A stretch of DNA of 64,000 nt from Strigamia acuminata (taxonomy: Eukaryota). The notes under the pieces are model-generated. The model saw only the letters and a list, made by a program, of their open reading frames with translations, had not been told where the DNA came from and did no database searches. The stretch's first letter is position 1. Each line of letters starts with the position of its first letter. The stretch spans positions 496,001-560,000 of the forward strand of contig OX442314.1 in NCBI GenBank assembly GCA_949358305.1. The letters run 5' to 3'. Below, one piece after another: positions 5,208-37,500 of this stretch. The position numbers were made by a program, and so were the translations under genes.

Positions 5208-5244
5208 AAATATTTTCCGCTCATGCCATCGCTCGATTATTTTT

Positions 5245-5592: not shown

Positions 5593-5850
5593 GTTTTCTT
5601 GCGACGCATTTCGGAGGAAAATCGTTTTCGGGATGAATTTTTTGTCTTTGACACTTTGCACGTCCACGTTGAGGATTTCGTCGAGTCGTCGGTCTTCACG
5701 TTCCTCTTTGATGCTTTTCGTCGTATAGGGCGTGTATTTGTCGGACAATACGCCTTCCAAGTGGTAGCCGATGAATCCGACGATGAGCGCGACGGGGAAC
5801 GTCACGTACGGCGCATATGTCCTCAACGCCGCCATTATTAGAGGGAGCAT
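5584..5850 (-). CDS. SMIM12: Small integral membrane protein 12 (88 aa)
   Basis: MLPLIMAALRTYAPYVTFPVALIVGFIGYHLE...SIKEEREDRRLDE matches the SMIM12 signature (RTYAPYVTFPVA..VG..GYHLE; REDRKLDE). ATG at 5850. Confidence 0.93.
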   Translation of the reverse strand: MLPLIMAALRTYAPYVTFPVALIVGFIGYHLEGVLSDKYTPYTTKSIKEEREDRRLDEILNVDVQSVKDKKFIPKTIFLRNASQENGN

Positions 5851-13291: not shown

Positions 13292-14267
13292 AGCGAACGT
13301 TGACCGGATAATAATTTAATTTTTGTTTTTCCCGAGCAAATTAAGGAGTGGCGCTTACTTAATTTATTCCTCTGTAAAAAGATGTTTGTTTAGATGTTTT
13401 ATTCGACGGTTTTTATTATTATTTCTCTTTTTCTCTCCGCGTAATTTATTTCTGTGCCAACTCAGGAATTGCAAACAAAATATCAGTATTATATCAGTGC
13501 AACACGTGACCAACCCGACGTGTCCTTGCCCATTTTCTATGACAAATTGTATACTTTATTTTGTACTATATTTTTTCGTTTTTCTTTTTTAAATATTCTT
13601 ATAAAATTTTCAGTTTGTTTCGTTTTTTTTATGTTTTTTTTTTGTTTTGTTATTTACGATCAACCTGAGAGTTGTGACAATATACTCGCTCAATGTGCCT
13701 TATTTTGTCCTTGATTTGAATGTTTTTTCGGTGTATGAAAATGTCTCGAGTTGTTTGTATTAGCTTGAAAAGCGAATTATGAAAATTATCCAATTTTTAA
13801 TCAACTGCCAATATTGCGCTTCCATCCCTCGACGGTTTTCTTTAATGTCTTGGCAGAATACGAAAATAAATTTCGAGGTACGTTTTTGATGTCGCCATGA
13901 CAACTGTTGATTTATACGAAATAAAGAGAATAATTAAATGTTTTCAATTTTTTCGTTTTTATTTCACTTCTTTACGAAACGTTACAAAATGGCGGATGGA
14001 TTGTTCGTTTTGGGTTCCGGTTTCTGACACTCGATCGAGTGGCGCTGCTGCTGGGTATCTCTAAAATTTTGAATTTGTCATGTACAAACGTGTTTTTATT
14101 GACCGGATCGGATCGTTCTATGGGATTGAATTGATAATGAAATGAATGTCCGAATTCGGTATCCGAAATATCTCGTCGTGTATTTAATTTTTAGTAAAGT
14201 TTGAAGTTTTATTTCAAAGTTTTATTCAAATAGAACACAAACGTTGCCTGAAAAAACGGTACGAACG

Positions 14268-14524
14268 ATGAGCGGCAGTAAACCCGCTGTTGTCATACAA
14301 TGGTGAGTTCTTTTATTTATTTTATTTATTTTATATATTTTTATGAGAATTTTATGTGATGAATTTTCTTTTTTGTTCTAAACAGCGCTCAAACGAGAGC
14401 TGGTGGCGGCCGCGTTGTCAGAGACAAGATGGCCGATGACGACGTGCAGTTTATCTGTTGTAAACAAAAAAAAATCGAATTCGTCGACTTGGAATCGGAA
14501 GAAGCGGAAAAGAAGAAAAATTAA
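14268..14524 (+). CDS. Putative two-exon 57-aa microprotein with SIM-like motifs
   Basis: Exons 14268-14302 (donor GTGAGT) and 14386-14524 (after polypyrimidine tract + AACAG) join to MSGSKPAVVIQCAQTRAGGGRVVRDKMADDDVQFICCKQKKIEFVDLESEEAEKKKN*. AATAAA at ~14561. Confidence 0.55.
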
Positions 14525-14860
14525 GATCGATTCAATATTAGACACACATTTTTACATTTAAATAAAATTTATACTTTCCTATTTGTTCACCTGGTGGCGC
14601 AAAATAAAAATGCCCTCTTTGATCCGCTTCGTTTACATTTAATCCTACAAACAAAAATATAAAAACGGAGATTTATTTTGTTTTAATAAACAACATGAAA
14701 GAATATTAGTGGAATATTTTCTCTTATTTATTAACAGTTTATCCAAAAACTATATTTGTCGAGATTCATTGGCTCTCTAGTCACTCTGGCGGCCAAAATT
14801 GAAAACAATCACTCTATAGTTGAAAGTGAAAATGTCATGGCCAATAAAACTAAGCTTAAA

Positions 14861-15933
14861 TGACGTCATTATCGTTGTAAGCGGATTGAACTCGTGGAAT
14901 CCCTCGAATCGTTGACAGATAATGAGCGACAGCTCGAGATAACGGTCGCGAGAAAAAGAAACGTGTGTCGAAAGGAATAAATAATTTATTTTTATTTTAT
15001 TATTCTTCGCATGAAATGAAAATGAACTCGATCGACCTCCCATGTTGCGGCGCGTGCGCAAACACGCTTCGCTTTTTGACCTTTTCGAAATCGCTTTTAG
15101 TCGCGTGTAAACGTGTAGGTGTCTCTCCAGCTTCCGTCGTATTCTATTTCTTCCCCGCTAAGAATAAAATTAACCCACTCGTTTCTCATCTCGTCTGGAA
15201 AAATCATTCGGAACCCACGGTCGGGCATTGCAAATAGGCCTATTTTGATGGCGCAGGTTGAGGCCCTTTGACGTCATACGCGATTTCGGCTATCTATGAC
15301 GTCAGGCAAGGTTTGGTTTATTTGTGACGTCATATCAATAAAAATAAACATAAAAACGAGGCGAGTGAAAAATAAAATCTTCTTTAGTGGGATGTTGTTT
15401 GGTCGTGTTCGGTTTATTCAAACGAAGAAAAAAAATAAAGGGAACAAAACAATTTGTATTTCCATGGCAACGACGGAACGTAATAACATTCATTTGTTGA
15501 AATGAAATAAAATTGAAATTGAGACATAAATTTCAAAAAAATAAAATTGAAAAAAAATAAAATTTCGGTTTGAAATTAATTTAAATTGAACATAATTTGG
15601 TTGATTAAATAGATAAGATCGCAAAAGATATCTCTAAACGAGATAAAATACTTCTTTTATTCTTCCCACGCGTATCCATGGCAACAAAAACATCCCGTTG
15701 CCAAGGAAACCCGATAGATGGTCAAAATGCCAAAAGCAACATATTGGTTTCCACGGCAACCGGAGACAAGAAAATAACCCTGACCAATCCCAATTAAAAT
15801 AAAATAAATTTTTAAAAAAAAAAAATAATTTTTTTATTTTTTTTATTTTTTTTATTAACCGGCTATTTGCCAAATTTTGCGCCATTTTAACAGTCAGGTC
15901 CAAATTCGAGGCACTCGGCGACTTGTGACGTCA
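14861..15933. promoter_or_regulatory. Putative Alk upstream regulatory region: five palindromic CRE sites and three RFX X-boxes
   Basis: TGACGTCA at 14861, 15269, 15297, 15325, 15926. X-box-like GTATCCATGGCAAC (15672), GTTGCCAAGGAAAC (15697), GTTTCCACGGCAAC (15747). Followed by a CpG-rich stretch ~16150-16560. Confidence 0.55.
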
Positions 15934-16559
15934 CAAGAGAATTTGTCGTGCCATATTGTGCGCCATTTTAACGGCCAGGTCCAAATTCGCGGCGAACGAA
16001 ACATCGGCGCCTCGTGACATCACTAGAGCATTTGTAGAGTGGAGCGGACACTTCCAGCACTTAATAATGCCCCATTTATCAAACCGAATCAATCTCCGTC
16101 GCTCGTCTCGCCCGAAACCATCGATTAACGAGTCGAGTTTGTTGACGTTAATACTCGAGTCGCCCGCATCGTTCGCGTGGCGCGCGCTGCGGTGCGGTGC
16201 GGGCGAGCCACCTTCGGGCGGAGCTTTGAGCATTCCTCCAGTCGCGCTGCGGACGAGTCCATGCGGCGGGCGCGGGTGTGATTCGCCCGCGCAGGCGCCA
16301 AGTCGGCCGCCAGACGAACGGAGCCGCCGCGCGATAATAAGAGCGCGCCAGATGCCGCGCGCGCGCGCCACTGCAACGCACGATCGCCATCTTAGGAGTG
16401 AGCGCCATTGCGCACGTGTTTCGTCGGTGCGACGCTTTCGTGATGAACGCGATTTGTGGCTGCAACTCGAATAGACGCCGGGAATAGACGCCTCTTCTCT
16501 AGAAGAGCCGCATCTTCATCTCTCCATCTCTTGGTCGCCCCCAATCGTCGCAGTCGGTG

Positions 16560-19500
16560 ATGGAGACGCGAGCGGGCGCGTTCTGGTTCGGTTGCACGTT
16601 TGTGGCGTTGCTGGTCGGTGGTGGAAGCGCGTTCGACTGTGATTTCGAGGCGGAGTGTCGGTGGCTCGTTGGCGGCCAACTCGGACGAGTGAGTGCGTCG
16701 AATTTGACCGGTGGGGGTGCCGGTGGGGGAGCCAATGGGGGACTTTCGATGGACTCGACTGGCAATGCTCAAGGTAAGTTTTCTTTGTCGCGCTGTTTTT
16801 GTTTTAAGACGTTTTGCTCGTTGCTCACGTAATGTGTGTTTTTATCATTTTTCGTGTTTTTGGACGAGTTTGGTGGATCTGATCTCATGGGATTTGATGT
16901 GCTTTCTCCAGATTTTGCTGTAATTGAACAAATTTTGGTGTTTGACTAGATTTGAGTGTTTTTGATTGTATTTTGGTGATTTTGACCAGATTTTGGTGAT
17001 TATGACCCATTTTGGTGATTTTTGACTAAATTCTCATGATTTTCCCCAAATTTTGGTGTGTTTGACCAGATTTTGGTGAATTTTGGCTAAATTCTCGTTT
17101 TTCACCCAATTTTGGTGTGTTTGACCAGATTTTGGTGATTTTTGACTAAATTCTCATGTTTTTCACCAAAGTTGGTGTTTTATGGCTAAACTTTTTTTAT
17201 TTTGATTAAATGTTTGGTCCTATTAATCAAGTTTTGCAATTTGATGACATTTTGTGTTTTGTGACTAGATTTACGTGTTTTTGACCAGGTTTTGGTGTTT
17301 TGTGACTAGATTTACGTGTTTTATAACTAGATTTACGTGTTTTTGACTAGATTTTAATGTTTTGTGACTAGATTTTAATGTTGTATAACTAAAGATTTAC
17401 ATGTTTTTGACTAGATTTATGTGGTTTTGATTATATTTTGGCATCTTTTTTTATACAAGATTTGTCTTTTTGAAGAGAATTCTTGTTTTCTTGTTTTCTG
17501 ATCAGATTTTGGTGTTTTGTAACGAGGTTTTTGTTATTCGTGCTGATTCGTGTGTTTCTGTGTGTCTCTTTTTGATTATCGGATGATTGATTGTGCTTGG
17601 CGTGACATTGGCACGCTCGGGCGGGCGTGAAGGGTCAAAGGTCAAGTCTCGCGAATGCCATTTGACCGCTGCAACTGTGTGGAGACCGGAGACCCTTGGG
17701 AAGGAACGGGGAAAAGGACGCGTTTATTGTGCTTTGCTTGATGAGCAAACGTCCCAGGTGGCTTCTCGCAGTCCATTTGGCAGCGAGCCAACACCATTTT
17801 CTGTTATTTTAAACGTCTTTTTTAAGTTTTTCGTGAAAAATGACACCCCGCGACCGCAATCGTTTGATTTATTCCATTTTACGCTCCATTTTACGCCATT
17901 TACTACGTTTTTGATGTTTCGGTCGCGACTGAACTCGAAACCGATTCTAAAATAATAAATTCGATTTATTTATTGTAATTTTTCCTTTTTTTTTTAAGGA
18001 AAAAATTATGAAATTCGTATTTGGTGATTTACGGCTGATTTTTGGTCCGTCGGCCATGTTGGAAATTAAAAAACGATTCGGGACGACGAAGCGCAATAAT
18101 TTAATCTATTTGCAGCTCTAAAAGTCGTTAAATTCCTTTAAATTATACGTTTTTCCCTCTAAAATATTTTAATCTATTGTGCAACGACGTCATTCACTTC
18201 TTACGTCATTCGTGTAACAACTAACGACACAGTAGTTGCGAATTTTCGCCACCATGACGAAGACGATCGCGAGTCGTAACAAGTTGTGTTTATTATGTTA
18301 TTATCGCAGTTTTCGTGGGCGCGCGAATGTTTCCGTTGCAAAATTGAAATTCCGCAACGTCAATTGAAGTCAAACGTCGGAAATTTCGCGATGATTGACA
18401 ATTCAATCGCCGGAGAAAAGCGTAGAGCGATTTTACGTTCCGCCGTGCGATCAATAACGCCAGGCTTTAAGTGTTCATCACTGTCTCCCGGGCCTTGCTC
18501 GCTGCGGCTTTTTTCCCTTCTTTTATACACCGTTATCGATAAAATGTCTTTTTATCTCACGATTTTTATTCGTTTTTTACATTTTTATTTCGCGAATTAA
18601 ATTCTTCCTTGACCTTGAAATACTGCCCACGAAAGAGCGTCGTATACTCAACTGATCGATCAGTTAAAAGAAGGCCTAACAATATGCGCGACATCTGGTG
18701 TTAGAAATATTTGAAATTAAAATTTATTTTTTGGAATAAATCGAGTGAATAAAATTGTCAAAATAAATAATTTTGGATTATTTATTTATTTATTTATTGT
18801 AGGTCATTTTCTTTATTTGCCCGGGTCGAAAAGCGCCACCACTCGGCAGATTAACATAACAAGTCCGGTCGTGCATTCGAGCGACCGGACGTGTCGTTTG
18901 ATTTTTTACGAACATTCGGTCGGAGTTCCGGTCGACGCCATCAAAGTCGTGGTGGTAGAAACGGACAAGTTGAGCACAATCATCGGCGATAAATACGCGC
19001 ACGGCACCAACAGGTTTGTTAGGTTTCGTTTAATCATTCCTGCATTGTTCCACGTCTTCCATTTCCGGTTGACGTCACACCGAGGCTTTATCTCGGCCGT
19101 ATCTGAATTAAAAACGTTTTTTTTCTTTAAATTTAAACTTTAATTTGATTATTATCGACGTTCTTGCAATTCGAATCGATAAGTTTCGGTTGACCACAAG
19201 GAAAAGGAGGCACGAGATTTGAGCAAGCGGTGCACGTGCGCCGAGGGGTGCGACATTTGACCGAATCTCTGACAATGGCTTCCGAATCTCGCCCGAATCT
19301 TTCCGAATCCCGCCCGAATCTTTTCGAATCCCGCCCGAATCTTTCCGAATCCCACCGAATCTTCGAATCTCGAATCTTTAAATTGTATACAAATCGAGGA
19401 AAATAAAGTCAAAATTTATGATAAAAAAATGTAATAATATTTTTACAAAAAACTGGAATAACCAAGGGAATAACTGACAACTGTAAATAAATCGAGAAAT

Positions 19501-22500
19501 AAATGTTCCACATTGAAATTGTCGGAAATTGTCGTTGAAATTGTCCGTATCGGAGGAAATTATACCTGCGCACCTCGCTGCGCGGTATCTGCGCATGCGC
19601 ATTTATGATTTAGCGCGAACTTCAAATTAATCCCGGAATTCAACATTGTTCGCAATTGTGATTGAGTTGGATTGCGTGCTATTTTACCTCGTATTTTACT
19701 TTATCCTATTAAAGGTAAGACTTTTGCGGATTATTATTTTCTCATTGATTATTTTTATGATGCTTTTCGTTCCAACTACAGGTTCCTCTGGCAAGTTCCA
19801 TTCATACGACCATACGAAAATTGTTACGAAAGTCGACGATTTTTTTAGCGCTACGGTGAAATTCGAGTCAAACTTGAATTGAAATTGAATTGAAATTGAA
19901 TAATTAGTACGGTAACAGATTATGAACTAAGTGCGCGTTAATTTGATATTTCGGAAAAGCTATTTCTATTGATATCGGTTGAAATATACGTATGGCGACG
20001 TATGGGCTATTTCGGGCTATTTTCACCGATTTTGGTTGAAATGATCGCCAAATTCCTACTAAAAAAAATGTTCCTTATTCCACAAGAAAATATATTATTC
20101 GTTTTTTTTATTCTAATGAAAAAAAAATCTGATTTGATTTACTACTAACTTGTAAGTTATTAATTTAAAGGAAAATGAAACTCTTTAAAATTTGTAATTA
20201 GCAAAATAAGATCTTTTTTTTTTGTTTTTTTTTATTAAATTTGAGTATGGATTATAAATAAAACAAAATAAATAAAATATATTACCTGATTCTTTTTTTA
20301 TATTCCATACACAAATGTAATGGAATCGAATGGAATAATGAACAAATTTTTTTATAATTTACCTTACTTTTACTTATATTGGCCAATGATAGAGGTGTCT
20401 CGCAAAGATATTATCGAGGATATTATTCATTTTTTCGACCAAAAATTCATTTTTTGGACGAAAAATTCATTTTTTGAACGAAAAATTCATTTTTAGGTTA
20501 AAAAAAATTCATTTTTTTGACAAAAAATTTATTTTTTGGACGAAAAATTTATTTTTTGGACCAAAAATTCATTTTTATGTTAAAAAAATTCATTTTTAGG
20601 TTAAAAAAAATTGTTATTTACACCCAAAAAATGAGCCGGCAATAACTTCGCAATGCGTCTGCAAAAGGGCGGTTTTTTGATCCGCTTTCCGGCTACAATT
20701 ACGTCGTTTTAGGCCCGCAAAAATAGCAGCTTTACTAATAAATAATGTTTTGCTTCAGATTTCTTTTTCTGTGGGAAGGATGTCGGATGGAACGGTTTGG
20801 CAATTCGCAACAGAGAATGATATTTCGCCACAGATCCAAGCCTGCTTGAAAGCTGCAGGATATTTCACATTAACTGGAATTTCAAAAATTGAAAGCAATG
20901 AATTGATTGAAAAATATCTGCAGGATACAGCTGATCTATACGAAGATGAGAAAGAGCTGAAAGCGATTTATGGAAAATTCCATAAAAAGCCCGAGAAATT
21001 TCGTTTTGCACCTGGACAACATGAAGAAATAACACGATTTAAAGATATCTGTCGAAGGAAAATCGATGACAACGAGAAAACCGTGGTGAAAACACATAAG
21101 CGGCTGAGACTGTCAGACAAAGCTAATGATTCTTGTGGTCAGAAGTTTTGCAACTATGGAACTGAAAAAAGCACCACATCAAACACCAATACGTCAGAAA
21201 CCGACACTCATGAATCCATAATTTACACTGATGTGAAATTAAAAATGAGAAAATGGCTTGCAAAACAGACTGATCCAGCGCTAAAGAGTTTAAAACACGA
21301 AAAAGATTTTAAATTTACCGTATCCTCCAGCGAATCAAGCAGTGACAATATATTTGAACATTATGAAGTTGTGGTGTTGTGTTTGATGTGTAATGGGAAA
21401 ATACGATTGCACATCAGAGATAAACACTTTACTGTTTTCAATGCAACAAGACATCTAGAAAAGTGCGCTAAAAGGTGTAAATTTGGAAACATGACCCAAA
21501 AAAGTTTGCCATTATATTTCCGTGCAACAGGAGAGAAGAATGGGGAAGAAATAACCCACAACGATGATAATGATAATGACCAGTTTAATTATGTTACAGA
21601 AAATAATGACAATGTAAGCTTATGTACGAATGAAATGCAATTAGATCTTGAGTTGGGTGCAAATCAAGATATTGTAACAACCACGCCAATAGGTAATGAA
21701 TAAATAAATTGTTTTATGCCTTTTACAAATGATAACAAATTTTTATAAAATTGCAGAAATGTACTCCAGAGCTTATTACAGAAAAGAAAAAAGCAAAAAG
21801 GAATTGTTACAATCAAGTGCGATGTGCCAAAAGATTACCAATTTTTACAACCCTCTTGATGAAATTCGACACTTGTTAATTGAAAACAAAAATTTAAACA
21901 ACTTTATAACGCATTTGCTGCAGCAGCAAAGTACGGCAGTTACTGAAGACCACTCAAGCCTGGAACACACTGTTGAATCCACGGTTAAACCCAGCAATTT
22001 TTTGCAGCTAATGTGGGATGCAGCTATCTCAAATACCAAACGAAAACGAAATGAATACGACTCAGATTCGATAAAAGAATTTGCTATGTTGTTATTTATG
22101 TGGCTTGGACCATCGAAATACACAATTTTATATGCGAATTTAAATTCCGGTATACCAAGCAGTCGCCAGGTTGAAAGATACCTAAAAAAATTCCAAAACG
22201 ATATTACAGAGGGAAAACTAAGAATTGGTTATTTGAAGCAACATATGGAGAGGTACAACTGTACTAACAACACTGTTTGGTTAAGTGAGGATGCAACACG
22301 CCTAGTGCAATCAATCAACTATGATGGCGATAAAAATGCATGTGTTGGATTTGTCTCACCGATATCAGCAAGTGGATTGCCGGAAATTAATACGTTTCCA
22401 TTCACATCCATACCAGATGTCAAAGCTTACTTCAAAAATTATAATTTTGCTAATCAAGCATACGTTATTATGGCACAACCAATGTGTCCAAATGTTCCAG

Positions 22501-25500
22501 CCATTTGTTTTTGTTTATTTGGAAGTGATAATAAATTCACATCTACTAATGTTCTGAACCGATGGAAAACAACACTTGATGAGTGCAATGCAAATGATAT
22601 TGTGATCGCAGGTTTCAGCGCTGATGGTGATCCGAAATTATTAAGGAGTATGCAGTTATCAAGTGGTCTGTTTTGTGAACCAAAAACAGTCTTTCAAGAA
22701 AAAGAAGAGGATCCAAACAGGATTTCTTCAACTGAAAACAAATGGTTTATTATGAATGGAAACATAAAGTTTTCTCTCATTCAGGACACTATTCACATTG
22801 GGGCAAAGCTACGTTGTCGTTTGCTTAAGAAAAATCGTTTACCAATTGGACACCGTTTTATATGCATTTCACATTTACAGCATATAGTGGAAAATAATTC
22901 AAAGGATTCACATCCATTAAGACTTTCTGATCTTGATTGCCGAGACAAGATGAACTATGCAGCTGTCGAGCGAATGGTGTCCAAAAATGTTCTTGAATTA
23001 ATTGAAAAAAAAGAAGAATTTAGAGGAACATTATTGTATCTAAAAGTGATGAAATTTGTGTTGGATTGTTTTTTAGCAGACGACTTGTCTCCTCTCAAAC
23101 GAATAGAGAAAATTTGGACTGCGATTTTCATCTTACGAGGATGGAGATTCTGGTTAAAAAACTGTACCACTTGCAAGCAACTGGACAGTTTTATAACTAC
23201 CAATGCGTATCAGTGCATCGAATTAAATGGCCACAGTTTAATACGTGTTATTGAAACTTGCAGAGAAAATTCATTGCCATTTTTACCACAATTACTTGGA
23301 TCGCAACAATGTGAACAACTCTTTCGTATTGCCAGAAGTTACTCTGTTGTGAATTCAACAATTGTTAATTTCAGTCTCAGTGAGTTGATAAAAAAAATTT
23401 ATCGAATTGAATCCGAATTAGCTGTCAGAGCTTCTGCCAATTCGAATAACATTCTAAAGATGCCAAAATTAAAAAAATATTCATCTAAGATGGGTGAAAT
23501 GCCTTCGACATTCCAAAATGTTAGCTGTCCAACAAAGAATGAAATAATCATAGACGGTATTTCTAAGGCACAACGAAAAGCTGTGCTATTATTGCACAGT
23601 GTGGGGATCGGCTTTTTATATCCAAACAACATATTCAATGATAATTTACTTGTTAAGGATGTCATTGTCAGATCTGACCATTTAAGTCAAAATGAAGAGG
23701 ATGTTAGATTCGGTGGAATAAAGTTCACAACTCACATACTAGATGAATAAACAAGTATAATGTTCCAAACTAATATCAAATTACACAGGTTGAGTACACA
23801 CGCATTACAGCTTCATCGTATCAGTATAACAATTCCCATCATTCCTAGCAACAACAAAAGATAATCTCAAACAAGGTATAATTAAATAACAAACTCTCTA
23901 ACAAATCCCCCTCTTGATATTATAATTGTACACTCATTAAAAATAAAAACATCACTTATAAATTATTCAAATATCATTGTTCATTAAAATGTCCATCACT
24001 TCTTTAATTTTCACTCCGGATAAATTCTTGGTTAGGAAATCTGCTAGTTGTTCTTCTCCGGGGACATGCACTGCTTCCAATCCTTCATTCTTGATTAAAT
24101 CCTTGGCCAAATTTACCCTTCGATTCAAAAATTTCGTCCGCATCTTGTGCGTGCCTTCTGTCATCATTGTTATTACATTCAAGCTATCGCAATAAATTTT
24201 TCCTTTTCCTTGTAATTCGTTCTTGCTTATATCTTCAATTAAATTCCTGTACCACATTGATTCTTTGACACCCTCCGTGAATGCTTCCAATTCACTTTCT
24301 GTGGTTGATTGTGCCACAAAACTCTGTTTCTTTGATTTCCAGTGAATCAAATCCTTTCCGTACAGAATTAAAACTCCCGAATACGATTTGCTGTCTGGGG
24401 TTTTGTCCCAACTTGCGTCTGTAAAAACTTCCAATTCTTTTCCTTCACTTCCGTACGTCAAACCGTATTCAGCTGTCCCTTTAAGGTAACGAATTACTCT
24501 TTTCAATCCATCCTCGTGGATTTGTCTTGGTTCCTGATTATATCTCGATAAGTTTCCCAAAGTAAAGCTTATATCTGGCCTGGTATGTGTCGCCAAATAT
24601 AATAGTCTTCCTAATAGCTCTTGATACGCTTTCGCATCCACTTTTTCACTTTCTGCGCATTCGTCGATATTCTGGTTCGGTTCACCTGGGGATTTTGCTG
24701 GATTACACTTGTCCATGTTGTACATCTTCAGCAAGTTTTGTAGGTAAGCTTGTTGGTGCACTACAATTCTTCCTTCCAGCTGGTCTAATTGCATTCCCAG
24801 TACGACCTTCGCATCTCCAATAGTGACTAAATTTACCGCTTTTCGCAACTTTTCCAAAATTTTGTTTTCATATGTTATGTCGCTAGCAACTGTTAACATG
24901 TCGTCTACGTGTAGCCCTATTATCATATATTCCACTTCTACAAATATATAATATAAGCATTCGTCATCTTTGGATTGTTGTAATCCGGTCGACTTCAGTA
25001 TTTTGTCAATTAGCTCATTCCAAGTTCGTCCACTTTGTTTCAGTCCATATATGCTTCGTATCAAAAAGCAAACTTCATCTTCTCTTCCTTTTTCCTTGAA
25101 TCCATCGGGTTGTTCCATCCATATTTTTTCCTTCAATTTCGCGTTCAAATACGCTGTTTTTACATCGTGTAATCGCACACGTTTCCCACGCTTTGCTGCA
25201 AATGCAAATATAAATCTCACTGATTCAATTCTAATCACTGGCGAGTATGTTTCTTCTACATCAACTCCATAAGTTTGAGCACATCCATTAGCAACCAATC
25301 TCGCTCTGTATCTTCCCTCTGTTCCATCTTCATTTGGTTTGACTTTGTAAATCCATTTGCATTTTATCGTTTTTCTTGCTTTCTCTCTTTTTTCCAATTT
25401 CCATACACCCAATCTCTTCATTTCCATCATTTCTTCTCCCATTGCCTCGATCCATTTGTCTTTTTGATCACTGTTCATTGCCTCCTTGTATGTCTTTGGT

Positions 25501-28500
25501 ATTTGAATTTCGTGTGTTGTCAATACAAATCCCTTTTCTTTTATTCTTTCAGATCTTCTTACTCCTTGTTTTTTCAATGCTTCTTCTTTTTTATTCTTTT
25601 CAATTTCGTGTTTTCTCTGCATTTCTTCCTTGGTTGTTCCTTTTGGTCTTCCTCTTTTTCCTTTTTCGTGATTCTCATTGTTTGTTGTATTCTGCTCATC
25701 ATCATTTGGCATCATGACGTTTCCTTCGTTTTCATGTTCTGCATTTTGAATCTCTGTGTTTTCTTCCTGAATTTCTTCCTCGTTTTCAGATGACACTATT
25801 CTATCCCCGTTGCTCCCTTCTTCTAGATCGGGTTCCTTTTGTTCATTAATGACCTCTTTTTCATCTGTTGACAAATCGATGGTTTCTTCGTCTTCCTCCT
25901 CCGAGCTGTCGTCCACTCTTGGTGTGTTTGTCTCAGCAATTTCTCCTTTGTTTTTCCATTTATGCATTCCCTTTGTGGTCTCATCAAATTTGACATCTGA
26001 TGTTTCATGAACTTTGTTCTTTTTAAAATCATATATGCGGTAGGCTTTCCTGTTTGTCGCATATCCAATAAAAATTCCCACACTGCATTTGTCTTCCAAC
26101 TTTTTTCTGTGTCCTTTTCGTAACATGTACGCCGTGCATCCAAATTTTTTGAAATATGCCACGCTTGGCTTGTAGTCTGACCACACTTCTTCCGGCGTCA
26201 ATCCGTGTATTTTGGTTACACAATGATTTCGAATTTTCATCGCTGTAAGTGCCGCCTCGCCCCAAAAATATTTCGGCAATTCTGAGTCCTTTAGTAAACA
26301 CCGGATCATTTCCATTATTGTCCTGTTTTGTCTTTCAACGATGCCATTGCTCTCGGGCGTGAACGCTGTCGTCAATTGGTGATGTATGCCTCTCTCATTT
26401 AACCAATGTTCAAAACCGTCCGACGTAAATTCTCCCCCGTTGTCAGATCTCAGAAATTTCACTTTCTTTTCTTTCTGTCTCTCCCATTTTTCAATTTGCG
26501 TTTTTATGGCTTCTTCTGCTCCATTTTTCCTTTCTAACAGCGAAATGTTGATTTTTCTGGAAAAATCATCGACCATTATCATAATGTATTTTTTCCCAGT
26601 TGGGGTTTTAGGTTTGAGCGGCCCCATCAAGTCCACGTGAATCAATTCAAGCACCGTTTTTGACTGTCTATCTGTGATTGTCTTGTGCGTTTTTCTTGTC
26701 AGTTTGCTGGTGATGCAGACGTCACATATTTGCCCTTCTTCTCTGTCCTTGCACTCTATCCCCCTCACGATATTTTTCGTCTTCATCTCGCTAATTGCGC
26801 CGAAATTTACGTGTCCCATCCTTTGGTGCCATGTTTTAATTTTTTCATGGGCTATCAGTCCTCTCTCTCTTGGCATCAGTTGGGTTTTTATCACGTATCT
26901 GTCTCCAATCCTTTCTCCAAACATTGCGTATTTGTTGCATGTCATCTTCATTTCATTTTCGTGAGCAATTCGAACTTTTTCCTTGTCGTACACAACAATA
27001 AATCCTTTATCCGTCATTTTCGGCACTGACAACAGATTTTCTGTAATATTTGGTATATACAGAACATTTGTTAATAAAGTCTCAATTTTTCCCTCGTCTT
27101 GACTGACTCTGATGTCTCCAATGGCTTCCGTGTTTGTTACTCCCGACGCTGTTTCTATTTCTCTGCAGTCATCTCGTGCATTCATCAACCAGTCTCGTTC
27201 TCGTGTAATGTGGCTAGTCGCGCCAGAGTCGGATGTCCATTCAATCTGTTGTTCATTCGTTTCGGTCTCTGTTGTTTTTTCTCTCACCATCAAGGTTCTT
27301 TCCATTTTCGTCCCATTTTTATTTTTTTCACAGTGGTACACCTTGATTTTTCGTCCGGTTGACACGAGTGATTTGCGCGGAATTAATTCTCCATCTCTGT
27401 CTCGTTTGAATTCCGTTTTCCATATTTTCTCTTCTATTTCATCGCAAATGTGCTCCGTTTTTATTTCTCTCGCGGTCATTAGGTTTTCTTTTGGTCCTTT
27501 TCCTTTCCCGCGATGTCCACTCGTTCCACGTCCTCTCCCACGACCTCTGCTGGCATTGTTTTCTGTTTTCTTTTCGTCTCTGCAATCTGCGCTCATATGA
27601 CCCATTCGCCCACAATTGTAGCATTTTGGTCTGCTTCTACAGTCCTTTTTATAATGCCCTTTGCCTGAGCAATTATAACACACGATGTTTTTGAATTCTC
27701 TTGCTTTGTGAACATTTTCTGTGGGTTTTCTTTCATTGTTTTGTTTCTCTCCCTCACACAGTTTCAGTCCACTTCTCAAATCGGCCATTTTTATGTCTGT
27801 TTGAAAATTCAGCGCTTCTCTGGCATTCTGGAACTCTCTCCTCAGTCCGTTTTTTATATGAAAAATCAATTCGGTTTCTTCCATCTTTCCTCCAGCCTGC
27901 AAAAAACACTGCCTGAGTCCCTGTGCTCTGTTGCAATACTCGTCAATGTTCTCATTTTTCTCCATTTTGATGTGGGTCACCTCGTGATGCGCTTCCAGTT
28001 TTGTTCTCTCTGCGGTGCTTTGCATGTCTGTTTTTATTTGTTCCCACAAAGTTTTTGCATTCCGTTCATGCATGTAAATCATTTGTTTTGACTCACACAT
28101 GTTATCAATCATTATCATTTTTGCTTTGGCATTCATATCATCATATGCATTCCACTTCTTGTCAGCATCATCTCCTTTCACCTGACTTTGAGGTGGTTCA
28201 TCCTCTAATATCACACTTTTCCATAATTTTTTGCCTCTTAATCTGTCCTCCAATCTGCACGCCCACAAAGCATAGTTGCTGTCGGTGAGAGCGGGAATTC
28301 CTCCTCTATTGTCGTTTGGTGGCGCCATCTTGTGTTCGGAATCGCTACTATCACTGCTTTCACTTAACGTACTGTTTTGTGTGTTTCTGCTTTCACTGCT
28401 GTCCGTGTTTTCTTCTTCACTACTTTCGGTGCTTTCTTCTTCACTGCTTGGTAGTTTGATATTCTCCTCTCCTATTCCTTGTTGTTTCCAAAAATTCATT

Positions 28501-31500
28501 CACACGCTGCTCGTTGCACTGATTGGTTTCGGTTTTCGTATCGCTGCTCAAAATGTTTTTCTATTCACTTCTCAGTGCTAAGAACACTAACCGGCCTCTG
28601 CTACCATGTTAGATTCGGTGGAATAAAGTTCACAACTCACATACAAGATGAATAAACAAGTATAATGTTCCAAACTAATATCAAATTACACAGGTTGAGT
28701 ACACACGCATTACAGCTTCATCGTATCAGTATAACAATTCCCATCATTCCTAGCAACAACAAAAGATAATCTCAAACAAGGTATAATTAAATAACAAACT
28801 CTCTAACAGAGGAAGAATCCGAAACCAACATTGAACCAAATGAAAAAGTAACTCCGATATTAGATGAAGATGAGGAAACACAGGCAAATTTAGAAGTTAT
28901 GACACGAAATAATTTAACTAGAAAATTAAAAAAAGTGAAAATAAATGGACTGTCATGCTTTGTATATGCTGACCAAGAAGAACCATTTTCATTTGATGAT
29001 ATTCCAATTGAAAGTCTGTACGTGCCGTATATGATCAAACAAAAAAATGTTTTAATTCGAAAAACAACAGCTCTTAGACTTATCCATGAAAGAGGATTCT
29101 TGTCATCAGATAGACAATTACGTGTACAAGGAAAATTTTGATTGTAAATTTTAATATTTCAATAGTCTCAAATAAAACTAAATAAATGTTCATTTTATTA
29201 AATGTCTCAAATAAAATGAAAAAATATCTCCCACTTTACTAAATTTATTTGAAAAAAATCCGAAAAAATCATATGAATCTTTCTGAATCCCATCCGAATC
29301 CCATCCGAATCCCACCGAATCCTACCGAATCCCGCCGAATCCCTTCCGAATCTCCCCGAATCCCATCCGAATCCCCCGAATCTTTCCGAATCTTTCCGAA
29401 TCCCATCCGGATCTTTCCGAATCCCCCGAATCTTTCCGAATCTTTCCGAATCCCATCCGAATCTTTCCGAATCCCATCCGAATCTTTCGAATCCCAAAAA
29501 AGATTCGAATCTCTGACAAGCAGATTCTGATTGTCGCCCCCCTCGGTTTGATCTTCGTTGTCGTTGCTAGGTAACGAGAGAATCAAAAGACTAGAGCGCA
29601 CGTCGAGGGGGGCGACAATCAGAATCTGCTTGTCAGAGATTCGAATCTTTTTTGGGATTCGAAAGATTCGGATGGGATTCGGAAAGATTCGGATGGGATT
29701 CGGAAAGATTCGGAAAGATTCGGGGGATTCGGAAAGATCCGGATGGGATTCGGAAAGATTCGGAAAGATTCGGGGGATTCGGATGGGATTCGGGGAGATT
29801 CGGAAGGGATTCGGCGGGATTCGGTAGGATTCGGTGGGATTCGGATGGGATTCGGATGGGATTCAGAAAGATTCATATGATTTTTTCGGATTTTTTTCAA
29901 ATAAATTTAGTAAAGTGGGAGATATTTTTTCATTTTATTTGAGACATTTAATAAAATGAACATTTATTTAGTTTTATTTGAGACTATTGAAATATTAAAA
30001 TTTACAATCAAAATTTTCCTTGTACACGTAATTGTCTATCTGATGACAAGAATCCTCTTTCATGGATAAGTCTAAGAGCTGTTGTTTTTCGAATTAAAAC
30101 ATTTTTTTGTTTGATCATATACGGCACGTACAGACTTTCAATTGGAATATCATCAAATGAAAATGGTTCTTCTTGGTCAGCATATACAAAGCATGACAGT
30201 CCATTTATTTTCACTTTTTTTAATTTTCTAGTTAAATTATTTCGTGTCATAACTTCTAAATTTGCCTGTGTTTCCTCATCTTCATCTAATATCGGAGTTA
30301 CTTTTTCATTTGGTTCAATGTTGGTTTCGGATTCTTCCTCTTCATTTTGACTTAAATGGTCAGATCTGACAATGACATCCTTAACAAGTAAATTATCATT
30401 GAATATGTTGTTTGGATATAAAAAGCCGATCCCCACACTGTGCAATAATAGCACAGCTTTTCGTTGTGCCTTAGAAATACCGTCTATGATTATTTCATTC
30501 TTTGTTGGACAGCTAACATTTTGGAATGTCGAAGGCATTTCACCCATCTTAGATGAATATTTTTTTAATTTTGGCATCTTTAGAATGTTATTCGAATTGG
30601 CAGAAGCTCTGACAGCTAATTCGGATTCAATTCGATAAATTTTTTTTATCAACTCACTGAGACTGAAATTAACAATTGTTGAATTCACAACAGAGTAACT
30701 TCTGGCAATACGAAAGAGTTGTTCACATTGTTGCGATCCAAGTAATTGTGGTAAAAATGGCAATGAATTTTCTCTGCAAGTTTCAATAACACGTATTAAA
30801 CTGTGGCCATTTAATTCGATGCACTGATACGCATTGGTAGTTATAAAACTGTCCAGTTGCTTGCAAGTGGTACAGTTTTTTAACCAGAATCTCCATCCTC
30901 GTAAGATGAAAATCGCAGTCCAAATTTTCTCTATTCGTTTGAGAGGAGACAAGTCGTCTGCTAAAAAACAATCCAACACAAATTTCATCACTTTTAGATA
31001 CAATAATGTTCCTCTAAATTCTTCTTTTTTTTCAATTAATTCAAGAACATTTTTGGACACCATTCGCTCGACAGCTGCATAGTTCATCTTGTCTCGGCAA
31101 TCAAGATCAGAAAGTCTTAATGGATGTGAATCCTTTGAATTATTTTCCACTATATGCTGTAAATGTGAAATGCATATAAAACGGTGTCCAATTGGTAAAC
31201 GATTTTTCTTAAGCAAACGACAACGTAGCTTTGCCCCAATGTGAATAGTGTCCTGAATGAGAGAAAACTTTATGTTTCCATTCATAATAAACCATTTGTT
31301 TTCAGTTGAAGAAATCCTGTTTGGATCCTCTTCTTTTTCTTGAAAGACTGTTTTTGGTTCACAAAACAGACCACTTGATAACTGCATACTCCTTAATAAT
31401 TTCGGATCACCATCAGCGCTGAAACCTGCGATCACAATATCATTTGCATTGCACTCATCAAGTGTTGTTTTCCATCGGTTCAGAACATTAGTAGATGTGA

Positions 31501-34500
31501 ATTTATTATCACTTCCAAATAAACAAAAACAAATGGCTGGAACATTTGGACACATTGGTTGTGCCATAATAACGTATGCTTGATTAGCAAAATTATAATT
31601 TTTGAAGTAAGCTTTGACATCTGGTATGGATGTGAATGGAAACGTATTAATTTCCGGCAATCCACTTGCTGATATCGGTGAGACAAATCCAACACATGCA
31701 TTTTTATCGCCATCATAGTTGATTGATTGCACTAGGCGTGTTGCATCCTCACTTAACCAAACAGTGTTGTTAGTACAGTTGTACCTCTCCATATGTTGCT
31801 TCAAATAACCAATTCTTAGTTTTCCCTCTGTAATATCGTTTTGGAATTTTTTTAGGTATCTTTCAACCTGGCGACTGCTTGGTATACCGGAATTTAAATT
31901 CGCATATAAAATTGTGTATTTCGATGGTCCAAGCCACATAAATAACAACATAGCAAATTCTTTTATCGAATCTGAGTCGTATTCATTTCGTTTTCGTTTG
32001 GTATTTGAGATAGCTGCATCCCACATTAGCTGCAAAAAATTGCTGGGTTTAACCGTGGATTCAACAGTGTGTTCCAGGCTTGAGTGGTCTTCAGTAACTG
32101 CCGTACTTTGCTGCTGCAGCAAATGCGTTATAAAGTTGTTTAAATTTTTGTTTTCAATTAACAAGTGTCGAATTTCATCAAGAGGGTTGTAAAAATTGGT
32201 AATCTTTTGGCACATCGCACTTGATTGTAACAATTCCTTTTTGCTTTTTTCTTTTCTGTAATAAGCTCTGGAGTACATTTCTGCAATTTTATAAAAATTT
32301 GTTATCATTTGTAAAAGGCATAAAACAATTTATTTATTCATTACCTATTGGCGTGGTTGTTACAATATCTTGATTTGCACCCAACTCAAGATCTAATTGC
32401 ATTTCATTCGTACATAAGCTTACATTGTCATTATTTTCTGTAACATAATTAAACTGGTCATTATCATTATCATCGTTGTGGGTTATTTCTTCCCCATTCT
32501 TCTCTCCTGTTGCACGGAAATATAATGGCAAACTTTTTTGGGTCATGTTTCCAAATTTACACCTTTTAGCGCACTTTTCTAGATGTCTTGTTGCATTGAA
32601 AACAGTAAAGTGTTTATCTCTGATGTGCAATCGTATTTTCCCATTACACATCAAACACAACACCACAACTTCATAATGTTCAAATATATTGTCACTGCTT
32701 GATTCGCTGGAGGATACGGTAAATTTAAAATCTTTTTCGTGTTTTAAACTCTTTAGCGCTGGATCAGTCTGTTTTGCAAGCCATTTTCTCATTTTTAATT
32801 TCACATCAGTGTAAATTATGGATTCATGAGTGTCGGTTTCTGACGTATTGGTGTTTGATGTGGTGCTTTTTTCAGTTCCATAGTTGCAAAACTTCTGACC
32901 ACAAGAATCATTAGCTTTGTCTGACAGTCTCAGCCGCTTATGTGTTTTCACCACGGTTTTCTCGTTGTCATCGATTTTCCTTCGACAGATATCTTTAAAT
33001 CGTGTTATTTCTTCATGTTGTCCAGGTGCAAAACGAAATTTCTCGGGCTTTTTATGGAATTTTCCATAAATCGCTTTCAGCTCTTTCTCATCTTCGTATA
33101 GATCAGCTGTATCCTGCAGATATTTTTCAATCAATTCATTGCTTTCAATTTTTGAAATTCCAGTTAATGTGAAATATCCTGCAGCTTTCAAGCAGGCTTG
33201 GATCTGTGGCGAAATATCATTCTCTGTTGCGAATTGCCAAACCGTTCCATCCGACATCCTTCCCACAGAAAAAGAAATCTGAAGCAAAACATTATTTATT
33301 AGTAAAGCTGCTATTTTTGCGGGCCTAAAACGACGTAATTGTAGCCGGAAAGCGGATCAAAAAACCGCCCTTTTGCAGACGCATTGCGAAGTTATTGCCG
33401 GCTCATTTTTTGGGTGTAAATAACAATTTTTTTTAACCTAAAAATGAATTTTTTTAACATAAAAATGAATTTTTGGTCCAAAAAATAAATTTTTCGTCCA
33501 AAAAATAAATTTTTTGTCAAAAAAATGAATTTTTTTTAACCTAAAAATGAATTTTTCGTTCAAAAAATGAATTTTTCGTCCAAAAAATGAATTTTTGGTC
33601 GAAAAAATGAATAATATCCTCGATAATATCTTTGCGAGACACCTCTATCATTGGCCAATATAAGTAAAAGTAAGGTAAATTATAAAAAAATTTGTTCATT
33701 ATTCCATTCGATTCCATTACATTTGTGTATGGAATATAAAAAAAGAATCAGGTAATATATTTTATTTATTTTGTTTTATTTATAATCCATACTCAAATTT
33801 AATAAAAAAAAACAAAAAAAAAAGATCTTATTTTGCTAATTACAAATTTTAAAGAGTTTCATTTTCCTTTAAATTAATAACTTACAAGTTAGTAGTAAAT
33901 CAAATCAGATTTTTTTTTCATTAGAATAAAAAAAACGAATAATATATTTTCTTGTGGAATAAGGAACATTTTTTTTAGTAGGAATTTGGCGATCATTTCA
34001 ACCAAAATCGGTGAAAATAGCCCGAAATAGCCCATACGTCGCCATACGTATATTTCAACCGATATCAATAGAAATAGCTTTTCCGAAATATCAAATTAAC
34101 GCGCACTTAGTTCATAATCTGTTACCGTACTAATTATTCAATTTCAATTCAATTTCAATTCAAGTTTGACTCGAATTTCACCGTAGCGCTAAAAAAATCG
34201 TCGACTTTCGTAACAATTTTCGTATGGTCGTATGAATGGAACTTGCCAGAGGAACCTGTAGTTGGAACGAAAAGCATCATAAAAATAATCAATGAGAAAA
34301 TAATAATCCGCAAAAGTCTTACCTTTAATAGGATAAAGTAAAATACGAGGTAAAATAGCACGCAATCCAACTCAATCACAATTGCGAACAATGTTGAATT
34401 CCGGGATTAATTTGAAGTTCGCGCTAAATCATAAATGCGCATGCGCAGATACCGCGCAGCGAGGTGCGCAGGTATAATTTCCTCCGATACGGACAATTTC

Positions 34501-37500
34501 AACGACAATTTCCGACAATTTCAATGTGGAACATTTATTTCTCGATTTATTTACAGTTGTCAGTTATTCCCTTGGTTATTCCAGTTTTTTGTAAAAATAT
34601 TATTACATTTTTTTATCATAAATTTTGACTTTATTTTCCTCGATTTGTATACAATTTAAAGATTCGAGATTCGAAGATTCGGTGGGATTCGGAAAGATTC
34701 GGGCGGGATTCGAAAAGATTCGGGCGGGATTCGGAAAGATTCGGGCGAGATTCGGAAGCCATTGTCAGAGATTCGGTCAAATGTCGCACCCCTCGGATCA
34801 AACTCTCTCTAATCGATTCTTATTCCGAGCCAATTTGCCAAAAAAATCTCAAACTATAAGTCGGAGAATCTAAAATTAACGCACCCGGTTTCTAATTTTA
34901 AGATTTCGACTGATTTATGGTTCGGATTTCGTTTTTTTTAAAATTCTAGTTCAGTTGTGAATAGTTTTTTTTAACGAGTTGACAACTCAACTGGATTAGG
35001 AGATTCTCCGGCACCGCGCAGGCGCTAAAAAGTATATAAAAATGATGTAATCTAATCGTAGCCAATAAGATGGGATTATTTTGAAAGGTTACCCAGATCA
35101 GATCGTCTATTTTTTATCGGTCGAGAATCGAGATCAACAATGGACGGGAATTTGATTTTTGTAGGTGGGAGAAAGTCGATCAACGGCTGGGCGAAAGAAA
35201 TTCACCTTTCCAGGTCGTCATCGAGTTTGAACCGGGAGACGAAAACTCGCATCTGGCGATCGACGATGTTCGTCTGGAAAATTGTTTCCCCGGTAAAAAT
35301 AACCGACATTCATCATTTTCTTTTCAATTTTTTTAAATTTTGACTTTTTTAAATTCTTTTTTTAAAAGATACGTTGCCAAGTCCTGGCTCGTGCGATCTG
35401 CGCCACCATTTTGACTGCGGCGAGAAATGCATCGAGCGCAGCCATGTTTGTGACCTGCACGTGGACTGTGCGAGAGGAGAGGACGAAACTCAGGAATGTG
35501 GTGAGTTGGAATTGAGGAATACATTTTATATATTTTTTATTTCTGCATCGATTATTGTGTAGAGAAAATTCCCCACCACGCCAAGTGTAATTTCGAGGCG
35601 GACGACGACACAATGTGCGGCTGGAGTAACGATCAAACGGATCATTTGGATTGGATTCGACACCAGGGGTCGTTGGAGAAACGGGGCCCGCCGCACGACC
35701 ACACTTATAAAAATTCATCAGGTGGGAGATTAATTGACCTAATTGTGTGGACTTTGTCAAAATGTAGCCCCCAAATCTCATCTCATGTCCAGGATGAATA
35801 ATTCTTAATTATGTTGGAATTTGGGCCTGAAATTTGAGTTTTCTTAATTTTCTGAAGATTATTACTAAAATGTGGGTAAATTTATAGAACTTTAGGCCAA
35901 TTTCCTACGTTTTGGACATTTAGAAATGCTTTTTATGCTTGTTTAAGTTCTGTTCTTATTGAAAAAACTTGGTAAAAACGGGGTAATACTGCGGTATCGT
36001 ATTACCCGGCTTATTGCCGCATGCCGTTGGTCATGGGTTTATGTTTATGACCGTTTTCAAATTGCGCCAAAGAAGTCTATACTGGCATGCCGGTATAGAG
36101 CGAAACATGCCGGTACAAGTGACAAAACTGGTTTTGTTTTTTTTGTTTAAAAGAGCCCAGATGATAAATTATGTTAAAATTTGGGCCTGAAATTTAAGTT
36201 TTCTTGATATTCTGAAGATTCTGAAGATAAAATGCACTTTTTAGAGTTAAAAATGCACTTTTTAGAGTTAAAAATGCACTTTTTAGAGTTAAAAATGCAC
36301 TTTTTAGAGTTAAAAATGCACTTTTTAGAGTTAAAAATGCACTTTTTAGAGTTAAAAATGCACTTTTTAGAGTTAAAAATGCACTTTTTAGAGTTAAAAA
36401 TGCACTTTTTAGAGTTAAAAATGCCCTTTTTGGAACAAAATTTGACCATTTGAAAAGAAATATAACTTTTTCGACGTAAAAACAAATCGGCAACGTGGAA
36501 TTATGTGGTCGGATTTAAGGAGCATTAATTGTATCATTACGAAATCTAAAGGAATATTTTAAACTGAGTATTCCGAAGTTGTTAACCACTCTGTTTGTTT
36601 GAACAGGTCATTTTTTATATTTGAACATGAAGCAAAGTCACGCCGGTTTTGGTTCGAATGCCACCCTGAATAGCGCTTCGTTCCCACCTCCGCCCAAATA
36701 TCACGGACAAATCCATTCCCCTTTCTTCAACTCCTGTCAGGTAAGAGAGAGAGAAGGGAAATTGCACATTTTCCATCTGAGCGTCTGCAATTTGCTTTTC
36801 TTTTAACATCCCTTAGGTCCGGTTTGCGTATTTCATGTTCGGCATGACTTCTGGCGCTTTGGCATTAAATTGCATCGAAAAACCGCCCAGGAGGGACGAA
36901 AAAGCGACAATATTGTGGCGAAAAGCCGGCAAACAGAAGGATGATTGGATTAGGGCCACGGTGCCTCTGCCAAAACTGCTCTACAGGTGAGTGAAAGAAA
37001 ACTCGAAACGAAAGAGAATATTTGTCTATACTCCGAACCGATGTAACGTTGTCCTATTTCACTGGTGTAGTGGCACAAAAAAGTAGCCCGAAACACTAGA
37101 ATCGTAATCGAACTCCAGACATTGTGATCGATTACCAACACTTGTTTCATTGTCGAAGGTGATGCTTAAGCCTGCTATTTTTGCGGACTTAAAACAGTGA
37201 AATTGCGGTTGGAAAGCGGCATTAAAAAACGGCATTTTGCGGACTTATTGCGGGCTTATCCGGCAAATTTTTGACCAAAATTTTAAGGTTTTAAACAAAA
37301 TTTGAAGTTTTTAAAGGAAATTTAAAGTTTTTAAAGAAAATTTGAAGTTTTTAAACAAAATTTGAAGTTTTTAAACATAATTTAAAGTTTTTAAACATAA
37401 TTTGAAGTTTTTAAACATAATTTGAAGTTTTTAAACAAAATTTGAAGATTTTAAACAAAATTTGAAGTTTTTAAATGAAATTATTACGTAATACGGTATC

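What the first reader, a model, noticed from the sequence alone, without database searches (positions are those of the whole stretch)
19234..34803. 15.5-kb transposon palindrome inside Alk with swapped, inverted target-site duplications (58-bp micro-inversion)
Seen: two apparently identical 5192-bp elements lie tail-to-tail 58 bp apart, and neither is flanked by a direct TSD. The order is ACGTGCGC-[A>]-GTTTGATC..spacer..GCGCACGT-[<B]-GATCAAAC, i.e. TSD1-A-rc(TSD2)..rc(TSD1)-B-TSD2. The predicted empty allele is ...GCGGTGC ACGTGCGC TCTAGTCTTTTGATTCTCTCGTTACCTAGCAACGACAACGAA GATCAAAC TCTCT... Known: exchanged TSDs mark TE-generated inversions (Galileo, P superfamily, in Drosophila buzzatii), and P elements hop locally. 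Inference: either a local hop followed by recombination between the inverted copies, or a one-step duplicative/hybrid-end transposition. The centre may still flip, like an invertible segment.
Basis: partly seen in the sequence, partly recalled or inferred. Interest (0 to 1): 0.92.

Follow-up and report, generated by a model that had tools for sequence, protein, structure and literature searches.

The report
Transposon palindrome with swapped insertion scars
In an intron of an animal's Alk gene, two identical copies of an apparently recently multiplied P-like transposon face each other around a reversed 58-base piece of host DNA, likely left by one aberrant jump; this is a known kind of event at an unusually small scale, and an assembly error in the orientation is not excluded.

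Summary
Observation confirmed. Two 5192-bp elements (0 differences once a copia insert is set aside) lie tail-to-tail in an Alk intron with exchanged, inverted 8-bp target duplications. A public run shows the predicted empty allele. The transposase folds like Drosophila P transposase, has DDE and DxxH, but no THAP domain was found. Contig depth suggests about 10-15 near-identical copies in two runs, about one diverged copy in a third. Hybrid-element insertion (one step) and local hop plus crossover give letter-identical products; my odds are 0.50 and 0.30, with 0.13 for an assembly flip. No long reads were available, so orientation is untested, and the segment that turned may be 58 bp or 6.6 kb. 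The signature and both mechanisms are in print (PMC2775673); this scan noted swapped duplications in two other genomes. New here are the 50-bp offset, which makes a palindrome instead of a chromosomal inversion, and a candidate non-engineered hybrid-element inversion. Host transcription would make a hairpin RNA like maize Ac killer (untested).

The parts
18803..19013 (+). Alk exon (MAM domain) upstream of the occupied intron
   Evidence: Pfam MAM E 3e-4; AG/GT ends and an open frame across the inferred splice to 35165
19234..19241 (+). target-site duplication t1 (ACGTGCGC), outer copy
19242..29545 (+). element copy A: 5192 bp plus copia insert; 14-bp terminal inverted repeats with one mismatch; CCGAATC repeats at both ends (8 and 18 copies, none elsewhere in the element)
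20780..29141 (+). transposase gene of A (exon 20780-21692, 64-nt intron, exon from 21757), interrupted at 23701 by the copia, behind the catalytic glutamate
   Evidence: intron inferred from GT/AG and frame
23702..28808 (-). Ty1/copia retrotransposon: 202-bp LTRs (23702-23903, 28607-28808; 1 mismatch), one 1510-codon gag-pol frame, duplication GAGGA; in arm A only
29546..29553 (-). reverse complement of t2, at the 3' end of A
29554..29595 (-). 42-bp host spacer, reversed against the empty allele; holds an RFX X-box-like palindrome at 29563-29575
   Evidence: X-box consensus recalled, function untested
29596..29603 (-). reverse complement of t1, at the 3' end of B
29604..34795 (-). element copy B, 5192 bp, uninterrupted
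30008..33257 (-). intact transposase gene of B: exons 33257-32345 and 32280-30008, 1061 aa predicted; D178, D289, D343xxH346, E519 (numbering from the Met at 32278)
34796..34803 (+). target-site duplication t2 (GATCAAAC), outer copy
35165..35292 (+). Alk exon (end of first MAM domain) downstream of the occupied intron (19014-35164: 16,151 bp filled, 639 bp empty)
   Evidence: Pfam MAM E 5e-3; a contig of run X4 joins 35291 to 35368, as a spliced transcript would

Best explanation
Two identical copies of a P-like cut-and-paste transposon sit tail-to-tail around a reversed 58-bp piece of an Alk intron, likely made in one step by hybrid-element insertion. Shown: the anatomy, the empty allele, the intact transposase of copy B and its P-type core. 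Inferred: one copy first inserted at one of the two targets with an ordinary direct 8-bp duplication; after DNA replication the transposase took the 3' end of the copy on one chromatid and the 5' end of the copy on the other and inserted this pair into a target 50 bp away on the second chromatid; in one of the two possible orientations this duplicates the element, reverses the DNA between old and new site and exchanges the duplications, with no further recombination. The copia entered one arm separately. Which target came first cannot be told. Predicted, untested: transcription through the arms yields double-stranded RNA against the whole family.
For: A symbolic walk-through of the route gives exactly the observed order. 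PMC2775673 (12 passages) says the outcome of hybrid insertion resembles ectopic recombination except that the copies are identical rather than chimeric; here they differ at 0 of 5192 sites and no host base is lost or doubled beyond the 8-mers. PMC7642927 (10 passages) calls hybrid element insertion the predominant route to P-induced inversions in experiments. The core is P-type: best 2 of 23 Foldseek matches at E<=0.001 are Drosophila P transposase (2e-11, TM 0.68 on the target; next family 8e-5). The family looks recently active: element-to-flank depth about 15 (X1) and 10.5 (X2) with 0 other letters in 13 of 14 listed pieces, against about 1.1 and 1.5-6% other letters in X3. Two independent insertions within 50 bp have a chance near 1e-4 for 12-20 copies in an assumed 150 Mb, so one copy almost surely begot the other. 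One event is needed instead of two.
Against: Identity of the copies does not discriminate, since a local hop also copies the neighbour and the family is nearly uniform. The rival gives the same letters. No single-copy precursor and no reciprocal footprint allele was seen; the contigs could not have shown them reliably. Head-to-head P pairs from ordinary local jumps are common in screens and found in 8 of 85 wild-derived strains (PMC5932611). The allele lasted long enough to take up a copia, which leaves time for a crossover. No read spans an arm, and no junction contig of this allele was listed; its only trace is an X2 contig that begins exactly at 34796, while X1 and X3 contigs pass that place unbroken. 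PMC7642927 knew of no wild inversion made this way.
Confidence: 0.5

Rival explanations
1. Local hop, then crossover: a copy jumped 50 bp and landed in inverted orientation, each copy with its own direct duplication; later a crossover between the identical arms reversed the middle (58 bp, or 6.6 kb with the copia) and exchanged the duplications. The middle could go on toggling at a low rate.
For: Same product letter for letter. This is the accepted route for Galileo, BuT5 and foldback inversions (PMC2775673, PMC3698922, PMC7642927; passages); for In(2L)Cy the authors infer transposition followed by recombination with the donor. Inverted P pairs arise readily (PMC5932611). 5.2 kb of perfect inverted identity and transposase-made breaks favour crossover (established knowledge). 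One LTR mismatch beside 0 arm differences (P about 0.04 under one clock) is a weak hint of arm-to-arm exchange.
Against: Needs two rare events within a young burst, on a haplotype whose flanks show 0 differences from the empty allele over 1040 (X1) and 948 plus 413 (X2) letters. The copies are not detectably chimeric, though that could not show here.
Confidence: 0.3
2. The two inverted copies are real, each with an ordinary direct duplication, and the assembler reversed the 6.6-kb middle across the identical 4460-bp arms.
For: Reversing the middle restores two direct duplications. The arms are 100% identical and the family is multi-copy. All 6 listed runs are short-word contigs, so nothing tests orientation.
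Against: The window has no N and runs through many tandem and dispersed repeats, which points to long reads (inference); reads over about 4.6 kb from either flank fix the orientation. The inner arms (about 738 bp) are too short to mislead long reads.
Confidence: 0.13
3. The palindrome does not exist on one molecule: it is a chimera of two single-insertion haplotypes (one at each target) or a fold-back product of amplified DNA.
For: All four junctions would also exist in a mix of two single-insertion haplotypes (reasoning). X1 and X3 contigs cross 34796 unbroken and the X2 contig crosses three of the four junction points unbroken, so the reads at hand mostly show the empty allele. Amplified libraries give palindromic reads (PMC13265396, search listing only).
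Against: A fold-back would mirror flank and copia too and would not stop at element ends with two different 8-mers. A haplotype chimera needs a join over only 58 bp. Contig building removes low-depth links into high-depth repeats (recalled), so missing junctions prove little. Other palindromes in the window are 82-96% alike, not perfect.
Confidence: 0.07

Closest known systems
Galileo inversion 2z3 and BuT5 inversions 2s, 2x3 of Drosophila (PMC2775673, PMC3698922; 12 passages each)
   Same: P-superfamily elements in opposite orientation, exchanged target duplications, one copy of each target in the uninverted allele.
   Different: Those span chromosome segments and the 2z3 copies are chimeric; here the targets are 50 bp apart, the copies are full-length and identical, one still encodes an intact transposase, the duplication is 8 bp and the terminal repeats are 14 bp.
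Hybrid element insertion by Drosophila P elements (Gray, Tanaka and Sved 1996; not held; known through PMC2775673, PMC7642927 and PMC3744419 passages)
   Same: Predicted product: inversion flanked by two identical inverted copies with exchanged duplications and no loss of DNA.
   Different: Described from laboratory crosses; this is a different, uncharacterised element in an assembled genome, and the route is inferred.
Inverted tandem P-element dimers (PMC5932611; 12 passages)
   Same: Two copies side by side, formed quickly during a burst.
   Different: Those dimers are mostly head-to-tail double insertions into one target, 8 bp apart; here two targets 50 bp apart are used and the host DNA between them is reversed.
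Maize Ac killer composite insertions (bioRxiv 10.1101/2020.01.07.897926, abstract and outline) and Mu killer (PMC3440606, listing and start of abstract)
   Same: Inverted duplication of transposon sequence inside a host transcription unit, for Ac made by alternative transposition.
   Different: Those are shown to make double-stranded and small RNAs and to silence in trans, from fractured copies; none of that is tested here, and the copies are whole.
Intramolecular replicative transposition of IS26 and Tn4401 (PMC4471558; 12 passages)
   Same: One step gives two inverted copies, a reversed segment and the same pattern of 8-mers.
   Different: Bacterial replicative chemistry; P-type transposases cut both strands, so the sister-chromatid route is the counterpart.

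Membership tests
P superfamily of DNA transposons | DDE triad with D(2)H motif | tested here: met
   D178 (119 of 121 aligned rows), D289 (121), D343 (121), H346 (120), E519 (120); motif named in PMC3698922
P superfamily of DNA transposons | fold of P transposase | tested here: met
   Model pLDDT 83.9; best matches 6P5A and 6PE2, E 2e-11 and 2e-10, 13-14% identity. Pfam PF12017 in 3 of 12 homologues scanned, not in the window's own protein; sequence searches of PDB found nothing
P superfamily of DNA transposons | terminal inverted repeats and 7-8 bp target duplication | tested here: met
   14-bp repeats with one mismatch, 8-bp duplications; P has 31-bp repeats and 8 bp (PMC3698922)
P family proper (P, THAP9-like) | N-terminal THAP domain | tested here: not met
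   No Pfam family at E<=0.1 in either long frame; Atlas look-alikes are unnamed arthropod and rotifer clusters. A small unseen upstream exon is not excluded. Filed as P-like, not as a P-family member
Galileo | long foldback terminal repeats and 7-bp duplication | tested here: not met
   14-bp repeats, 8-bp duplication
Inversion by ectopic recombination (criteria of PMC2775673) | opposite orientation, exchanged duplications, single targets in the uninverted allele | tested here: met
Inversion by ectopic recombination (criteria of PMC2775673) | chimeric copies | tested here: inconclusive
   0 of 5192 differences, but the family is nearly uniform, so chimerism could not show
Inversion by hybrid element insertion | identical flanking copies, no deletion or duplication of host DNA | tested here: met
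   necessary, not sufficient
Inversion by hybrid element insertion | single-copy precursor allele and reciprocal footprint allele | not testable with these tools
   only short-word contigs of 4 runs of this organism
Transposon killer alleles (Mu killer, Ac killer) | inverted duplication of transposon DNA within a transcription unit | tested here: met
   inside an Alk intron; 29300-29850 folds as one perfect stem, which follows from the identity
Transposon killer alleles (Mu killer, Ac killer) | double-stranded RNA, small RNAs and silencing in trans | not testable with these tools
   no RNA run on record among the 6 listed

The most novel reading that the evidence does not exclude
A spontaneous hybrid-element inversion, a route so far described from laboratory crosses, caught during a lineage-specific burst of an undescribed THAP-less P-like family; because it sits in a transcribed intron, it is an animal counterpart of maize Ac killer, an allele through which the transposon's own error produces the hairpin RNA that shuts the family down.
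Probability: 0.15. Interest if true: 0.72.

Novelty: new variant of a known kind. Interest (0 to 1): 0.42.

Why it matters
PMC7642927 noted in 2020 that no wild inversion was known to come from hybrid element insertion although it dominates in P-element experiments. Here the precursor alleles may still segregate (the empty allele on a matching haplotype does), so population long reads could decide between the two routes, which old inversions cannot. The allele also offers a direct test of whether aberrant transposition starts transposon silencing in animals as it does in maize, and of what a 25-fold longer, self-complementary intron does to Alk splicing. If the orientation is an assembly error, what remains is an ordinary inverted local hop in a young family.

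Tried and rejected
No whole genome is held, so other copies and their target sites could not be read. No RNA holder listed; X4 held 0.09 of the words and gave nothing at the left flank. X1 and X3 gave no true cover of the left flank although they hold 0.99 and 0.77 of the words of 13000-19233; the tool warns that a filter drops records, so this hole is not used. Sequence searches of PDB with the transposase and with its 121-row profile found nothing. A search for longer relatives of the first exon found none, which is weak. No palindromic symmetry at either target (6 and 8 of 20 positions). hAT, RAG/Transib and Galileo assignments were considered and dropped. A site-specific invertase is not needed and none was seen among the frames of 17000-37000. 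PMC12368964 (11 passages) and PMC3439972 (2 passages) added nothing. Gray 1996 could not be read; Figure S1 of PMC2775673 was seen as a legend only, and its supplement list was fetched but no file opened. A look-up of earlier notes on this genome was empty.
Full report
Observation. A self-comparison of the window gives one perfect inverted pair of 4461 letters and one of 738 letters, 58 bp apart; one letter at each outer end is a chance match, so the elements run 19242-29545 (A) and 29604-34795 (B, reverse). Both begin and end with a 14-bp inverted repeat (one mismatch) found nowhere else in the window at up to two mismatches. A holds a copia retrotransposon of 5107 bp with 202-bp LTRs, one long gag-pol frame with 7 Pfam families above their cut-offs, and a 5-bp duplication. 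Without it A and B differ at 0 of 5192 sites.

Host gene. Frames on either side match the first and last thirds of a MAM domain, followed by LDLa, a second MAM and a glycine-rich stretch; the last matches ALK and LTK structures in the best 8 of 34 hits. The insertion lies in an intron, 19014-35164, inferred from GT/AG ends and an open frame across the splice; it is 16,151 bp filled and 639 bp empty. The organism is not known to me; the named relatives of the transposase are arthropod, the closest from a centipede at 55% over half the length.

The element. B encodes a predicted 1061-aa protein in two exons. Pfam finds nothing in it, but 147 relatives were found among 6201 candidates, 3 of 12 scanned relatives hit the P-transposase HTH model, and a model built on 121 rows (pLDDT 83.9) matches Drosophila P transposase best (E 2e-11; Hermes and RAG1 follow at 8e-5 and weaker). 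D178, D289, D343xxH346 and E519 are kept in 119-121 of 121 rows, the DDE and D(2)H pattern named in PMC3698922 (12 passages). No THAP domain was found, so I call it P-like rather than a P-family member. In A the copia interrupts the gene behind the catalytic core.

Evidence from reads. Six runs were listed, four of this organism, all kept as short-word contigs. On 18760-19271, a 485-letter X2 contig covers 18829-19241 without a difference and continues for 72 letters; the 30 shown are the reverse complement of 29566-29595, and 72 is what the empty site predicts. On 29546-36150, contigs of X1 (3195 letters) and X3 (3234) come in from the right flank, pass 34796 and go on for 2155 and 2168 letters that are not B; if they cross the empty site they end at 17129 and 17116, beside the only repeated 31-mer of that flank at 17108, so I read them as empty alleles too (inference). 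The X2 right-flank contig starts exactly at 34796, which suggests a second path entering there, the outer junction of B; this is the only trace of the filled allele, and the other three junction points leave none. Median depth over hand-picked element bins free of short repeats (9 for X1, 5 for X2, 5 for X3, of 30) against 4 flank bins gives ratios of 15, 10.5 and 1.1; the tool warns that depth is no copy number, so these are rough. Of the 14 element pieces listed for X1 and X2 (the longest of 1126 and 2256 laid), 13 have no other letter and one has two; the 7 listed for X3 differ at about 1.5-8%. X1 and X2 belong to one study and may be one strain or the source of the window. The picture is a recent burst in one lineage and an old remnant in another.

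Mechanism. Two independent insertions within 50 bp are improbable (about 1e-4 for 12-20 copies in an assumed 150 Mb), so one copy came from the other. Writing out the pieces shows that two routes end in the same order of parts. In hybrid-element insertion, the 3' end of the copy on one chromatid and the 5' end of the copy on its sister insert together into a target just beyond the second copy; one orientation gives the observed allele at once, and the left-over ends would join into an allele with an excision footprint. In the two-step route a local hop makes an inverted pair with direct duplications and a crossover in the arms reverses the middle. PMC2775673 (12 passages) states both and separates them by identical versus chimeric copies; that test fails here because the family is uniform. 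I put 0.50 on the one-step route because it needs one event in a short time, 0.30 on two steps, 0.13 on an assembly flip across the 4460-bp arms and 0.07 on a chimera; these odds are judgement, not computed. The size of the turned segment is undefined under the two-step and flip readings: 58 bp or 6.6 kb give the same letters. Toggling would need only homologous recombination and is untested.

Unexplained. The copia LTRs differ at 1 of 202 sites while the arms, which must have been separate at least as long, differ at none; under one clock this has a chance of 0.037. A reverse-transcription error, arm-to-arm conversion or smoothing in the assembly would each explain it. The 42-bp spacer holds a match to the RFX X-box consensus (recalled) on both strands, with 0 such matches in the 48,446 bases outside the insertion; an open regulatory site may have drawn the element, which is a guess.

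Comparison and novelty. Exchanged duplications are the published mark of Galileo, BuT5 and foldback inversions, and one-step routes are known from P, maize Ac (3 passages of PMC3744419) and IS26. This scan noted two larger cases in other genomes (unchecked notes). PMC7642927 knew of no wild inversion by hybrid insertion. The phrase occurs in 13 papers of the library; I read passages of 4 and saw the other 9 as listings, and neither these nor the listings showed a spontaneous case with targets tens of bases apart; subscription journals are mostly missing, so this is weak. Whether the source is wild or a laboratory line is unknown. The maize Ac killer work (abstract and outline) shows that inverted duplications made by alternative transposition can silence their family; this allele has the anatomy for it, since an Alk pre-mRNA would carry both arms, but no RNA data test it.

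Verdict. Real in the assembled sequence, anchored by a true empty allele, made by a young P-like element through a known class of event; the route and the orientation remain open. New variant of a known kind, interest 0.42.

Noticed in passing
window 29604-30014 joined to 34373-34795: An internally deleted derivative of the element, about 852 bp with 18 extra letters at the joint, has joint depth 16,369 in X1 and 282 in X3 against flank depths of about 67 and 30; X2 shows other joints and very high depth over the same ends. It suggests a non-autonomous family that multiplied strongly in one lineage.
   Followed up: partly
window 30008-33257 and proteins P0001-P0120: The transposase belongs to a large unnamed P-like clade without a Pfam hit; its closest relative is from a centipede at 55%, the rest at 29-40%; three scanned relatives carry Ulp1 protease and PHD domains at the C-terminus.
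   Followed up: partly
window 29563-29575; 15462 and 15676: An RFX X-box-like palindrome in the reversed spacer, and two half-site-like motifs upstream of Alk; consensus recalled, function untested.
   Followed up: partly
window 23740 and 28645: Single mismatch between the copia LTRs although the transposon arms are identical.
   Followed up: partly
window 55655-57278: A 1.6-kb element with 258-bp inverted ends (96% alike) in a later Alk intron; flanks not resolved into a duplication.
   Followed up: no
window 40791-40988, 42779-42991, 53357-53478: Three short diverged palindromes (82-87%) in Alk introns, MITE-like.
   Followed up: no
window 20405-20630 and its mirror 33408-33612: A 20-bp AT-rich tandem array inside the element before the transposase start, with very high depth in all three deep runs, so probably a piece of a genome-wide repeat carried by the element.
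   Followed up: no
window 1-16500: Compact genes upstream of Alk: a RING/IBR-like frame near 57-302, a short frame at 5587-6048 on the minus strand, and a WWE-containing DDHD-type phospholipase-like gene from about 6600 to 13100 (WWE by Pfam; the other names recalled from the translations).
   Followed up: no
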